Below are positions 1-7,338 of a DNA stretch of 7,338 nt, one piece after another; within the stretch, counting starts at the first letter, position 1; each line of letters begins with the position of its first letter. Origin of the DNA: a virus (Duplodnaviria; Heunggongvirae; Uroviricota; Caudoviricetes); IMG/VR virus record IMGVR_UViG_2711768040_000016, one strand, 5' to 3'. A program made the translations under genes and the position numbers. The notes under the pieces were generated by a model. It was given only the letters and a program-made list of their open reading frames with translations. It was not told where the DNA came from and did not search any database.

Positions 1-219
1 TCACATCCACATAATTTGCTGCCCTGACGGCAACGGGTGCGGCCTTACGGCGTGGACTTCTCCCGGCTTCACGATGTATCTCTGTACCGACTCATAAGTG
101 ATGAACGTGGCGCTGCAATTCACGTTCTGACACTGGTGATAACGCTCTTTTGTCGTGTCAGTGATATAGCGACTTGTACGCGCATGTGCGGCATGCTGGC
201 ATAAAGGACAATGAAACAT
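1..219 (-). CDS. ogr: Ogr/Delta-family zinc-finger late transcription activator (72 aa)
   Basis: Minus-strand ORF with stop at 1..3. The track ORF 1..351 is 116 aa, but the last 72 aa starting at the ATG at 217..219 (MFHCPLCQHAAHARTSRYITDTTKERYHQCQNVNC...) carry the Cys-X2-Cys-X22-Cys-X4-Cys motif characteristic of P2 Ogr. Position directly downstream of gene D matches P2 gene order. Start chosen by length match to the 72-aa Ogr family and by the candidate promoter at 254..282, which lies inside the longer ORF. Confidence 0.88.
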   Translation of the reverse strand: MFHCPLCQHAAHARTSRYITDTTKERYHQCQNVNCSATFITYESVQRYIVKPGEVHAVRPHPLPSGQQIMWM

Positions 220-5413: not shown

Positions 5414-6604
5414 TTAATTGCTGTTAACCGAGGTGACCAGATTTGCCAGGTATTTATCGGTAATACGCTGGCGCAGGGTCAGGTTTTCGAGAGGAGGCAC
5501 CGGGGTATAGTCATAGTCGATATACAGTTTTCCGGCCTTGAGGGTTTCCGCATCGTTGGATTCTTCGCTGAACCAGCAGGTCGCATCCACGATATAGCCG
5601 TTTGTTTTCAGCTCACGGAATTTGGCATTGATGCCGTCAACGATGTCGCGAATCAGCGTTGCGGTGATGGGCTTGTCCACCGCCCACATGTGCGCCTCAG
5701 CCATCGTGTCGGCCAGCACCTGCGCGGTGCGGGTGTAGTTTTCAAAGAGGAACAGCGGGTCATCAGAGCAGGTACGGTTACCCCAGAAGCGGAAACCGTC
5801 GCGGCGAATCAGTGTAGTGACGCCTGACTCATTAAGCAGGTCAGCATCGGTGCCGGACTCCTGCAAATCCCAGAATACAGAGGCGCTGATGCCGGTAACA
5901 CCGTTCACCCCGACATTGGATAGCGTTTTATGCCAGCCCTGCTCCTGGTCAATTCTGGCACGCAGACCCAGCGCACGGGCGGTGGCATACGCGGTGGCGG
6001 TAGTACTGGTGACCGTATCCCATGCGAGGAAATCCGGCCAGATGACCATCAGCTCACGCTGGCTGAAATTCTGACGGTAGGCTTTCACCTCGGAAATGGT
6101 TTTACAGTCCCATGCGCTGATATACCCGAAAGCGCGCAGCTTCTGACAGACGGATGCCAGTGCAACAGCCACCTCTTTGGTGTCCAGTCCCGGCACACCG
6201 AGAATACGCGGTTTAACACCGGTTACCGACTCCGCCGCCAGCAGGGCTTTCAGTCCGGTGTACTGACCATTTTCGTCGGTGGTGCCGATGATATTGGAAA
6301 CGGTCTGCGCGAGTTTCGTTTCTTCGTCGTCGCCGGTGCCGTCTTCCACACGCACGACAACGGTGACCGGTTTTGACTGGTCGGCGATGGCCTGCAACGA
6401 TGCCGCCAGCGTGCCTTTTTTACCGGCCTTTGCAATTGCGCTCTGCACATTGGTAATCAGCACCGGTTTATTGAGGGGGAAGATTTCCGCATCCGCATCG
6501 CTGGCCGTGCAGACCATGCCGACAATGGCAGTGGATACGGTGGAAATGACGCGGGTGCCGTCGTTAATCTCCAGCACCTGCACGCCGTGATGATAGTCAC
6601 TCAT
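5414..6604 (-). CDS. FI: Contractile tail sheath protein FI, 396 aa
   Basis: 396-aa minus-strand ORF (MSDYHHGVQVLEINDGTRVISTVS...) with the length and position of P2 gpFI, first gene of the FI-FII-E-T-U-D operon. Ribosome-binding site GGAG lies 8 nt upstream of the ATG at 6602..6604. Confidence 0.94.
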   Translation of the reverse strand: MSDYHHGVQVLEINDGTRVISTVSTAIVGMVCTASDADAEIFPLNKPVLITNVQSAIAKAGKKGTLAASLQAIADQSKPVTVVVRVEDGTGDDEETKLAQTVSNIIGTTDENGQYTGLKALLAAESVTGVKPRILGVPGLDTKEVAVALASVCQKLRAFGYISAWDCKTISEVKAYRQNFSQRELMVIWPDFLAWDTVTSTTATAYATARALGLRARIDQEQGWHKTLSNVGVNGVTGISASVFWDLQESGTDADLLNESGVTTLIRRDGFRFWGNRTCSDDPLFLFENYTRTAQVLADTMAEAHMWAVDKPITATLIRDIVDGINAKFRELKTNGYIVDATCWFSEESNDAETLKAGKLYIDYDYTPVPPLENLTLRQRITDKYLANLVTSVNSN

Positions 6605-6628: not shown

Positions 6629-6696
6629 TGAGTGGTATTTTCAGTTGTGCCGGAGATGTCAGGCTATTTGTCCCGGTTGGCTAAGGGATGACACAA
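6629..6696 (-). promoter_or_regulatory. Candidate Ogr-dependent late promoter for the FI operon (imperfect TGT-N12-ACA-type dyad)
   Basis: P2 late promoters carry a TGT-N12-ACA dyad centred near -55. No exact match occurs upstream of FI. The nearest is TGT-N12-CCA on the minus strand (+ coords 6678..6695), about 55 bp upstream of a weak AAAATA -10-like element (+ 6636..6641). If real, it overlaps the 3' end of the invertase gene. Weak evidence. Confidence 0.18.
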
Positions 6697-7257
6697 TTTA
6701 TTCTTTGTCACTGATGAGGGGAATTTTTTATAGAGCGTGGACAGGCCAATATCAAAAATCAGCGCCACACGTTGACGAGATTCCCCCGCAGCCAGCAACC
6801 GTCCGACCTGCTCCCACTCACTCGCGGTGAGTTTCGGACGTCTGCCACCAATACGACCTTTGGCTCTGGCCGCTTCCAGTCCGGCGCGTGTCCGCTCGAC
6901 AATGAGTTCTCGCTCCATTTCAGCCAGGGCACCCATCACATGAAAGAAAAAACGCCCCATCGGCGTGCTGGTATCAATAGCATCCGTCAGACTGCGAAAA
7001 TTAACGCCGCGTTCGCGCAGTTCCTCAACCAGAATGACCAGATGCCGCATACTACGCCCCAGCCTGTCCAGCTTCCAGACTACCAGTGTGTCACCTGCTG
7101 ATAATGTTCTGAGCAGTTTTTTCAGTCCCGGTCTGTCGGACTTCGTGCCGCTGATTTTATCCTCAAAAATCCGCTCGCATCCTGCGCACTCCAGCGCGTT
7201 ACGCTGCAATTCCGTGTTCTGGTCATTTGTTGACACGCGTACATAGCCAATAAGCAT
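6664..7257 (-). CDS. Serine-recombinase DNA invertase (Gin/Pin/Hin/Cin family), about 197 aa
   Basis: The minus-strand ORF translates to MLIGYVRVSTNDQNTELQRNALECAGCERIFEDKISGTKSDRPGLKKLL...GDTLVVWKLDRLGRSM...MGRFFFHVMGALAEMERELIVERTRAGL...GRIGGRRPKL...LSTLYKKF, which is near-colinear with Mu Gin as I recall it. It includes the catalytic serine motif YVRVSTNDQ and a C-terminal helix-turn-helix. The track ORF starts two codons earlier at 7263, but GGGGG directly abuts that ATG; the ATG at 7255..7257 has better ribosome-binding-site spacing and matches the Gin N-terminus. Confidence 0.92.
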   Translation of the reverse strand: MLIGYVRVSTNDQNTELQRNALECAGCERIFEDKISGTKSDRPGLKKLLRTLSAGDTLVVWKLDRLGRSMRHLVILVEELRERGVNFRSLTDAIDTSTPMGRFFFHVMGALAEMERELIVERTRAGLEAARAKGRIGGRRPKLTASEWEQVGRLLAAGESRQRVALIFDIGLSTLYKKFPSSVTKNKLCHPLANRDK

Positions 7258-7312
7258 GAGCATCCCCCTGAATAAAAACCGGAGATGATGCCAGTTGCCC
7301 GTTATCTCTGCA

Positions 7313-7338
7313 TTTTCATAAACGTTGGTTTGGGAGAA
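7313..7338. other. hix/gix/cix-like 26-bp invertase crossover site
   Basis: The reverse complement of 7313..7338 is TTCTCCCAAACC-AA-CGTTTATGAAAA: two imperfect 12-bp half-sites around a central AA dinucleotide. It resembles hixL (TTCTTGAAAACCAAGGTTTTTGATAA) and gix as I recall them. It lies about 55 bp upstream of the invertase start, the expected position for the invertase-proximal inverted repeat. The partner site would be outside the window. Confidence 0.55.

What the first reader, a model, noticed from the sequence alone, without database searches (positions are those of the whole stretch)
6664..7338. DNA invertase and crossover site at the window edge imply an invertible tail-fibre host-range switch just outside the window
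A Gin/Pin/Hin-family invertase sits immediately upstream of the tail sheath gene, and a 26-bp hix/gix-like site (7313..7338) ends exactly at the window's last base. In Mu (gin/G segment), P1 (cin/C segment) and e14 (pin), this arrangement controls inversion of a segment encoding alternative tail-fibre C-termini and fibre assembly chaperones. Canonical P2 has no invertase here, so this element is a mosaic P2-like phage with an acquired Mu/P1-type switch. The window ending exactly on the repeat could reflect an assembly break at an inverted repeat, though the window also begins exactly at the ogr stop codon, so annotation-based windowing is an alternative.
Basis: partly seen in the sequence, partly recalled or inferred. 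Interest (0 to 1): 0.6.

Follow-up and report, generated by a model that had tools for sequence, protein, structure and literature searches.

The report
Tail-fibre inversion switch in P2-like prophage

Summary
Window 6664-7257 (-) encodes a 197-aa Gin/Pin-type serine DNA invertase, 86% identical to PinE of e14 and matching Gin across residues 1-182. Window 7313-7338 is a 26-bp crossover site, 26/26 identical to the pinE-proximal site of e14.

The window is 100% identical to a complete E. coli chromosome (NZ_AP022036.1). There the sequence continues into a 1.9-kb segment that ends at an inverted partner site inside an intact tail-fibre gene H. The segment holds two opposed cassettes, each a fibre C-terminus plus an assembly chaperone. 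In-silico inversion keeps H in frame: 399 aa with a Gp53-like tip now, 435 aa with a Collar tip after flipping.

Two near-identical prophages differ only by inversion of this segment, with breakpoints at these sites. In the P2 context, 162 complete E. coli genomes show one orientation and 72 the other.

P2 itself carries fun(Z) in this slot, so the module is a mosaic insert. It is closest to e14 Pin rather than to Mu or P1. Invertible fibre segments in P2-like prophages (EPEC, Fels-2, phage pro483) are published. Why the window ends on the site cannot be determined.

The parts
6664..7257 (-). DNA invertase gene (197 aa; an in-frame ATG two codons upstream at 7263 would give 199 aa). Small serine recombinase of the Gin/Pin/Hin/Cin subclass.
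   Evidence: Pfam Resolvase plus HTH_7. Gin 3uj3 E 5e-94. 86% identical to PinE. S9, R7, D64, R65, R68 and the invertase-specific K46, K47, R50, Q150, R153, L154 are present (residue roles from PMC3798978).
7313..7338 (-). 26-bp crossover site next to the invertase: outer half-site 7313-7324, 2-bp core 7325-7326 (TT on the + strand, AA on the - strand), inner half-site 7327-7338, which belongs to the invertible segment.
   Evidence: 26/26 identical to the e14 pinE-proximal site. It contains 14 of the 16 nt of the e14 P-segment repeat TTGGTTTGGGAGAAGG reported in PMC12529663. The inverted partner is at L001 14804-14829, i.e. 1865-1890 nt beyond the window end. The inversion breakpoints between L002 and L003 fall on it.
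7221..7235 (-). Candidate proximal Fis-binding site of the recombinational enhancer (TGTCAACAAATGACC), about 98 bp from the crossover centre. Inferred, not shown.
   Evidence: A simple Fis-consensus score finds it at the same aligned position in e14 pinE and Mu gin. Its position fits the native hix-enhancer spacing of about 100 bp in Hin (PMC3798978).
7173..7187 (-). Candidate distal Fis-binding site (GCGCAGGATGCGAGC), 48 bp centre to centre from the proximal candidate. Inferred, not shown.
   Evidence: the same 48-bp spacing is seen in the window, e14 and Mu. The hin enhancer has two Fis sites with 47 bp between their centres (PMC3798978). The motif is degenerate and lies in conserved coding sequence, so this is weak evidence.
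7285..7338 (+). Start of the invertase-proximal ORF (ATG at 7285 and 7288). It reads through the crossover site into whichever cassette is not fused to H, and runs off the window. It is the counterpart of stfE in e14.
   Evidence: ORF L001 12886-13407. RefSeq calls 12889-13407 'phage tail protein'. After in-silico inversion it becomes a 137-aa ORF with the Gp53-like tip. e14 stfE has the same layout.
6673..6701 (-). Homologue of the P2 pF activator (Ogr) binding site for the FI operon, lying inside the last codons of the invertase ORF. Continuous homology to P2 resumes at window 6684, which marks the right edge of the mosaic insert.
   Evidence: 19/29 identical to P2 17555-17583, with TTGTG and TTAGCCAACCGG kept. 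96.5% identity to P2 from 6684 onward.
5414..6604 (-). Tail sheath gene FI (context: the first gene downstream of the invertase).
   Evidence: 96.5% nt identity to the start of P2 FI.

Best explanation
The window's right end holds the recombinase gene and one of the two crossover sites of a two-state, Pin/Gin-type invertible tail-fibre segment. It belongs to a complete P2-like (Peduovirus) prophage integrated between fieF and cpxP.

Proposed mechanism:

1. Invertase dimers bind the two 26-bp sites, one at window 7313-7338 and the other 1.9 kb away inside fibre gene H.
2. The sites synapse, probably with Fis bound to an enhancer in the 5' part of the invertase gene.
3. The enzyme cleaves at the central AA/TT dinucleotide through Ser9 and rotates one half by 180 degrees, inverting the segment.
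4. This replaces the C-terminal receptor-binding part of H after the motif ...AYLGLGE. A Gp53-like tip (H = 399 aa, the state in this genome) is exchanged for a Collar-domain tip (H = 435 aa).
5. The matching assembly-chaperone gene is brought directly downstream of H at the same time. Phage released from a lysogen population would therefore carry one of two fibre specificities.

Shown here: the parts, their integrity, both frames, and that inversion at these sites has occurred between near-identical prophages.

Inferred: Fis/enhancer dependence, current activity in this particular strain, and a host-range difference between the two states.
For: - The window equals NZ_AP022036.1 at 100%.
- The invertase has its domains, catalytic residues and Fis/enhancer-contact residues.
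- The two 26-bp sites are in inverted orientation, share an identical inner half-site and a symmetric AA/TT core, and no third site is found.
- H is one intact 399-aa ORF crossing the distal site.
- The cassettes carry Collar and Gp53-like_C tips and two Caudo_TAP chaperones.
- In-silico inversion gives an in-frame 435-aa H.
- L002 and L003 are 100% and 99.95% identical in the flanks, and the 1873-bp middle is inverted at 99.9% identity with breakpoints on the sites.
- Contigs encoding the identical invertase protein occur in both states.
- In the P2 context, 162 genomes show one junction and 72 the other.
- The prophage gene set runs complete from int to ogr.
- Read- and PCR-verified inversions in P2-like prophages of EPEC, and inversion of the e14 segment at the same repeat, are published.
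Against: - No reads were available, so inversion in this strain itself is not shown.
- No sigma-70-like promoter for the invertase was found by the consensus scan.
- The Fis sites are only candidates from a degenerate motif inside conserved coding sequence.
- A host-range effect of these two tips has not been tested anywhere that I could find.
- RefSeq annotates H in this genome as a pseudogene fragment plus a separate gene. The continuous ORF contradicts that, but it shows the state was not obvious to the annotation pipeline.
Confidence: 0.9

Rival explanations
1. The invertase and site are a solitary or decayed remnant. The gene and the 26-mer survive, but no inversion takes place any longer.
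For: RefSeq marks part of H as a pseudogene in this genome. No promoter was detected for the invertase. No read-level data exist for this strain.
Against: The partner site is present and the inner half-sites are identical. H is a continuous 399-aa ORF, and the inverted state is also in frame. The invertase keeps all catalytic and regulatory residues. Near-identical prophages differ only by the inversion. Both states are frequent.
Confidence: 0.05
2. In the lysogen the main role of the switch is host defence rather than phage host range. The invertase-proximal ORF (start at window 7285/7288) would make a free receptor-binding tip protein whose identity flips with the segment. That protein would block adsorption of other phages, as reported for StfE2 of e14.
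For: An ORF with its own ATG outside the segment reads through the site in both states (173 aa and 137 aa). Its layout and the 26-bp site are the same as e14 stfE next to pinE. Kirigo et al. 2025 report that inversion of the e14 P segment yields StfE2, which blocks T2 adsorption (PMC12529663).
Against: The Shine-Dalgarno spacing is poor: GGAG directly abuts the first ATG (sequence). No promoter was found. Here the fibre gene belongs to a complete phage, so the classical role is sufficient. Only the Collar cassette is related to e14. No expression data exist.
Confidence: 0.1
3. The locus is a multi-site shufflon-like system with more than two states, as in one P2-like prophage of EPEC.
For: Goldberg et al. 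2014 found three repeats and four variants in one EPEC P2-like prophage. Cassette content varies between relatives; L012, for example, has two Gp53-like cassettes.
Against: The half-site scan finds exactly two sites in this genome's locus and in the twelve relatives that span the whole segment (L002-L004, L008-L015). The two-cassette layout leaves room for only one inversion.
Confidence: 0.03

Closest known systems
Pin invertase and P segment of the cryptic prophage e14 (E. coli K-12)
   Same: The invertase-proximal 26-bp site is identical (26/26). The invertase is 86% identical in protein. The site, the pin 5' part, the Collar-type cassette and tfaE are 86-89% identical in DNA. The layout is the same: invertase, site, short ORF start, two opposed fibre-tip plus chaperone cassettes.
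   Different: e14 is a defective lambdoid element, whereas this module sits in a complete P2-like prophage between H and FI. The second cassette (Gp53-like tip plus a 147-aa chaperone) is not related to stfP/tfaP at the DNA level. The outer half of the distal site differs (GGTATGCGAGAA against GGTTTTCGAGAG). The invertase has a 13-residue C-terminal extension that runs into the pF promoter.
Gin / G segment of phage Mu (and Cin / C segment of P1)
   Same: Same enzyme subclass: Gin aligns without gaps over residues 1-182. Same logic of S/U against S'/U' alternative fibre ends, with the crossover site inside the fibre gene and the invertase just outside the segment.
   Different: The site sequence differs (gix TTCCTGTAAACC GA GGTTTTGGATAA). 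The G segment is about 3 kb, against 1.9 kb here. The phage backbone is different. P1 was not examined here.
Invertible fibre segments already reported in P2-like prophages: EPEC E2348/69 (Goldberg 2014), Fels-2 fin (Zaworski 2021) and Escherichia phage pro483 (Peduovirus pro483)
   Same: pro483 has the same gene order: sheath, DNA invertase, collar cassette, two chaperones, fibre. It is 96.3% identical over the 939-nt query. Inversions in P2-like prophages of EPEC were shown by reads and PCR. In Fels-2, an inversion next to fin swaps the fibre C-termini. An invertase is said to be seen often in the P2 Z/fun hotspot.
   Different: I did not align the EPEC or Fels-2 loci to this one, so their relatedness at the sequence level is not established here. 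One EPEC locus has three repeats and four states; this one has two sites.
Canonical phage P2 (NC_001895)
   Same: The backbone matches: the end of gene I at 87.7% and the pF-FI region at 96.5% nt identity, with the same late gene order down to ogr.
   Different: P2 has a single 669-aa H, one G chaperone, a terminator and fun(Z) between G and FI. It has no invertase and no crossover site.

Membership tests
Fis/enhancer-dependent DNA invertases (Gin/Hin/Cin/Pin subclass of small serine recombinases) | N-terminal resolvase-type catalytic domain with the serine nucleophile and conserved Arg/Asp residues | tested here: met
   PF00239, E 7.8e-53. S9, R7, D64, R65 and R68 are present.
Fis/enhancer-dependent DNA invertases (Gin/Hin/Cin/Pin subclass of small serine recombinases) | C-terminal helix-turn-helix DNA-binding domain and a total length of about 190 aa | tested here: met
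   PF02796, E 5e-13. 197 aa, aligned 1-182 to Gin and 1-181 to PinE without gaps.
Fis/enhancer-dependent DNA invertases (Gin/Hin/Cin/Pin subclass of small serine recombinases) | Residues conserved in invertases but not in resolvases: Hin K47, K/R48, K/R51 (helix B) and Q151, R154, L155 (DNA-binding-domain helix 1) | tested here: met
   K46, K47, R50, Q150, R153 and L154 are present in Gin numbering, which is Hin numbering minus 1. The criterion comes from PMC3798978.
Fis/enhancer-dependent DNA invertases (Gin/Hin/Cin/Pin subclass of small serine recombinases) | Two 26-bp crossover sites in inverted orientation, each made of two imperfect 12-bp half-sites around a 2-bp core that is the same in both | tested here: met
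   TTCTCCCAAACC AA CGTTTATGAAAA and TTCTCCCAAACC AA GGTATGCGAGAA lie on opposite strands with 1862 bp between the arms.
Fis/enhancer-dependent DNA invertases (Gin/Hin/Cin/Pin subclass of small serine recombinases) | Recombinational enhancer with two Fis sites about 48 bp apart, about 100 bp from one crossover site, inside the invertase gene | tested here: inconclusive
   Candidates at window 7221-7235 and 7173-7187 have the right spacing and distance and are conserved in position in e14 and Mu. However, the motif is degenerate and the region is conserved as coding sequence.
Fis/enhancer-dependent DNA invertases (Gin/Hin/Cin/Pin subclass of small serine recombinases) | Catalyses inversion, not deletion, and requires Fis and supercoiling | not testable with these tools
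   There is only indirect evidence: natural variants differ by a precise inversion at the sites.
Invertible tail-fibre host-range segments (G of Mu, C of P1, P of e14) | Crossover site inside the fibre gene, separating a constant N-terminal part from alternative C-terminal parts, with both states in frame | tested here: met
   H is 399 aa now and 435 aa after in-silico inversion, with the junction after ...AYLGLGE. The natural 420-443-aa Collar-tip forms appear.
Invertible tail-fibre host-range segments (G of Mu, C of P1, P of e14) | Two opposed cassettes, each a fibre C-terminus followed by its own assembly chaperone | tested here: met
   Collar tip plus a 200-aa Caudo_TAP on the + strand, and Gp53-like tip plus a 147-aa Caudo_TAP on the - strand.
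Invertible tail-fibre host-range segments (G of Mu, C of P1, P of e14) | The two states give different host range or adsorption | not testable with these tools
   The two tips belong to different Pfam families, which makes different receptors plausible but does not show it.
P2-like phages (Peduovirus) | P2 late gene order and sequence similarity, with the ogr activator and the pF promoter | tested here: met
   ogr-D-U-T-E/E'-FII-FI and V-W-J-I-H, plus head, lysis, A, cox, C and int genes. 96.5% nt identity to P2 at pF/FI. The best phage hits are P2-like phages.

The most novel reading that the evidence does not exclude
The short ORF that starts in the window at 7285/7288 and reads through the crossover site is expressed in the lysogen. 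It would produce a free fibre-tip protein whose specificity flips together with the phage fibre. Like e14 StfE2, it would mask outer-membrane receptors against superinfecting phages. Because the 26-bp site is identical to that of e14, any Pin-type invertase in the cell could also drive the switch in trans.
Probability: 0.1. Interest if true: 0.45.

Novelty: already known. Interest (0 to 1): 0.12.

Why it matters
The finding matters mainly for annotation and assembly.

- The switch explains why tail-fibre genes next to such invertases are often mis-annotated. Here RefSeq splits an intact H into a pseudogene and a separate gene.
- It also explains why draft assemblies may break nearby.
- For phage biology, it is one more instance of bet-hedging on host range in a common family of E. 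coli prophages.
- It opens no new question on its own. A possible defensive role for the invertase-proximal ORF would be the only new angle.

Tried and rejected
- Decayed switch. I considered this because RefSeq marks H as a pseudogene. I rejected it because the ORF is continuous at 399 aa and the flipped state is also in frame.
- More than two sites. A half-site scan of this locus and its relatives found only two.
- Invertase promoter. The consensus scan found none. It found only a weak hairpin followed by a T-run between the site and the ATG.
- NCBIfam. It gave no family above its cut-off for the invertase and nothing for H.
- Fis sites. I tried to pin them down. Only a degenerate-motif match with the right spacing was possible, and the hin enhancer sequence is not in the text of the papers held.
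- Why the window ends on the site. It is not a gene boundary in RefSeq or in the gene calls. Draft contigs do end inside the segment (L016 starts 27 nt past the distal site, L017 mid-segment), but none ends at this base. This is left undecided.
- Literature. Kutsukake 2006 (Fels-2 Fin) is not held. Two other calls failed on term format.
- Junction counts. The first, short junction queries also count e14-type junctions. I replaced them with longer queries that include the P2 sheath gene.

Full report
**1. What is in the window**

The minus strand of window 6664-7263 is an open reading frame. The start that aligns with residue 1 of Gin and PinE is the ATG at 7257, giving 197 aa. RefSeq uses the same start in the identical genome record.

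- The protein has a resolvase catalytic domain (PF00239, E 7.8e-53) and a resolvase HTH domain (PF02796, E 5e-13).
- Its closest solved relative is the Mu G-segment invertase Gin (3uj3, E 5e-94, residues 1-182 aligned without a gap).
- It is 86% identical to PinE of the K-12 e14 element.
- The ORF stops 59 bp before the start of the P2-type sheath gene FI (5414-6604, minus strand).
- Read on the minus strand it is TTCTCCCAAACC AA CGTTTATGAAAA: two imperfect 12-bp half-sites around a 2-bp core.
- It is unique in the 24.9-kb locus, with none expected by chance at up to three mismatches.
- It is 26/26 identical to the site that lies just upstream of pinE in e14.

**2. What lies beyond the window**

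The last 939 bases match the chromosome of E. coli WP3-S18-ESBL-09 (NZ_AP022036.1) at 100%. The whole window is an exact substring of that record; window coordinate equals L001 coordinate minus 5601.

- A partner site, TTCTCCCAAACC AA GGTATGCGAGAA, lies on the opposite strand at L001 14804-14829, with 1862 bp between the arms.
- Its inner half-site and AA/TT core are identical to those of the window's site.
- A scan for further sites found none in this locus. It found the same two sites in the twelve relatives that span the whole segment.
- The partner site lies inside the tail-fibre gene H, a single intact ORF of 399 aa (L001 14444-15643, minus strand).
- H has a Phage_tail_fib N-terminal domain and a Gp53-like C-terminal domain.
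- RefSeq splits this ORF into a 'pseudogene' and a separate 'gp53-like' gene. That is an annotation artefact.

Reading from the invertase, the segment between the sites holds four elements:

1. A Collar-domain fibre C-terminus.
2. A 200-aa Caudo_TAP chaperone on the plus strand.
3. A 147-aa Caudo_TAP chaperone on the minus strand.
4. The Gp53-like C-terminus now fused to H.

Inverting L001 12926-14817 in silico leaves H in frame. It becomes 435 aa, with the junction ...AYLGLGE|GSALPV... in place of ...AYLGLGE|AAKRDV....

**3. Does the segment really invert?**

No reads were available, so the evidence is comparative.

- Two bovine isolates from Okinawa (L002, L003) are 100% identical over the 4940 bases on the invertase side and 99.95% identical over the 2159 bases on the H side. 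The 1873 bases between them are 99.9% identical in reverse complement. The breakpoints overlap the two 26-bp sites.
- Contigs that encode exactly the same invertase protein occur in both states. L008, L010 and L015 have a Collar tip on H. L009 and L014 have a Gp53-like tip on H.
- I ran 1534-nt queries spanning the P2 sheath gene, the invertase, the site and 400 nt of one or the other cassette. At 80% coverage or more, 162 complete E. coli genomes hold the state seen here and 72 hold the flipped state.
- At least 80% of the sheath-end/invertase/site query is present in 545 of 5426 complete genomes.

The inversion is therefore recurrent and precise, as expected for an active site-specific system.

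**4. How it most likely works**

The enzyme carries the serine nucleophile (S9) and the conserved R7, D64, R65 and R68.

McLean et al. 2013 list residues that are conserved in Fis/enhancer-dependent invertases but not in resolvases: Hin K47, K/R48, K/R51 and Q151, R154, L155. This protein has all of them, as K46, K47, R50, Q150, R153 and L154.

In Hin the enhancer is 65 bp with a Fis site at each end and 47 bp between the site centres. It lies about 100 bp from hixL. In the 5' part of this gene, two Fis-like 15-mers lie 48 bp apart, the nearer one about 98 bp from the crossover centre. They fall at the same aligned positions in e14 pinE and Mu gin (window 7221-7235 and 7173-7187). Because the Fis motif is degenerate and the region is conserved as coding sequence, I treat this as a consistent inference and not as a demonstration.

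The mechanism I commit to is the standard invertasome. Invertase dimers bind both sites and synapse at the Fis-bound enhancer. Double-strand cleavage occurs at the AA/TT core, followed by a 180-degree subunit rotation and religation. The result is an exchange of the receptor-binding end of H together with its cognate chaperone gene. A host-range difference is inferred from the two unrelated tip domains and from the precedents of Mu, P1 and carotovoricin cited in the literature.

**5. Genomic setting and mosaic boundaries**

The element is a complete P2-like prophage between fieF and cpxP. It carries int, C, cox, A, the portal-side cargo slot, Q, P, O, N, M, L, X, lysis genes, R, S, V, W, J, I, H, the switch, FI, FII, E/E', T, U, D and ogr.

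Canonical P2 has G, a terminator and the fun(Z) gene between H and FI, with no invertase and no site. Homology to P2 stops within gene I/H and resumes at window 6684 at 96.5% identity.

The homologue of the P2 pF activator-binding site is window 6673-6701. It lies inside the last codons of the invertase ORF, whose 13-residue tail beyond the Pin/Gin homology is thus made of promoter sequence.

The inserted module is related to e14. The site, pin and the Collar cassette are 86% identical, and tfaE 89%.

**6. Comparison with what is known**

- Goldberg et al. 2014 detected two invertible loci in P2-like prophages of EPEC E2348/69 by read mapping and PCR. One has two states and one has four. They also detected the e14 inversion in K-12.
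- Zaworski et al. 2021 describe an inversion of the Fels-2 fibre C-termini next to fin.
- A 2024 preprint on phage hotspots states that a DNA invertase, with inversion of adjacent genes, is often seen in the Z/fun hotspot of P2-like phages.
- Escherichia phage pro483, an ICTV species of Peduovirus, has the same layout and is 96.3% identical over the query.
- Kirigo et al. 2025 give the e14 P-segment repeat as TTGGTTTGGGAGAAGG, 14 nt of which are the last 14 bases of this window. They report that PinE, PinQ and PinR all invert it.

The feature is therefore a member of a described and common arrangement.

**7. The window edge**

In complete genomes the sequence continues without a break. Base 7338 is not a gene boundary in RefSeq or in the independent gene calls.

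Some draft contigs do end inside the segment. L016 starts 27 nt past the distal site and L017 starts mid-segment. Mixed orientations can therefore plausibly break assemblies here, but I found no contig ending exactly at this base. The cause of the window boundary stays open.

**8. Verdict**

- Novelty: already known.
- Interest: low.
- Only non-trivial open reading: the invertase-proximal ORF, starting at 7285/7288 and reading through the site, might yield a free tip protein with a defensive role like e14 StfE2. I give this about 10%.

Noticed in passing
L001 14444-15643 (outside the window; window-equivalent 8843-10042): RefSeq/PGAP annotates the intact 399-aa tail-fibre ORF H as two features: a 'pseudogene, missing C-terminus' (15254-15643) and a separate 'gp53-like domain-containing protein' (14444-14854). 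The ORF is continuous, so this is probably a systematic annotation artefact at invertible fibre genes.
   Followed up: yes
window 6664-6701: The last 13 or so codons of the invertase ORF, including its TAG stop, overlap the homologue of the P2 pF Ogr-binding site. No terminator was found between the invertase and FI, so invertase transcription may read into the late tail operon.
   Followed up: partly
window 7277-7296 (minus strand): A weak hairpin followed by a T-run (AACTGGCATCATCTCCGGTT TTTATTCAGG) lies between the crossover site and the invertase ATG. The motif TGGCAT.AT...CTTTTA is conserved in e14 and Mu. It could shield the invertase from read-through out of the H operon, or it could be part of the invertase promoter.
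   Followed up: no
L003 6782-6807: In one of the two Okinawa isolates, the inner half-site next to H carries a C-to-T change (TTCTCCTAAACC), while the invertase-proximal inner half-site is unchanged. The two inner half-sites are therefore not always identical.
   Followed up: no
L012 2527-4970: A relative with the identical invertase protein carries two Gp53-like cassettes and no Collar cassette, so the cassette repertoire is exchanged between otherwise similar prophages.
   Followed up: no
NZ_AP022036.1, elsewhere in the chromosome: The junction and invertase queries hit 2-3 places in the same genome. The strain therefore has at least one more Pin-type module that could act on this segment in trans. 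These places were not located.
   Followed up: no
L019 3573-5748 (outside the window): The P2 old/tin cargo slot between the portal gene and gene A holds two hypothetical genes and an ImmA/IrrE metallopeptidase gene. This may be accessory or defence cargo.
   Followed up: no
window 1-219: The window starts exactly at the stop codon of ogrK (72 aa, minus strand). All genes in the window are on the minus strand.
   Followed up: partly
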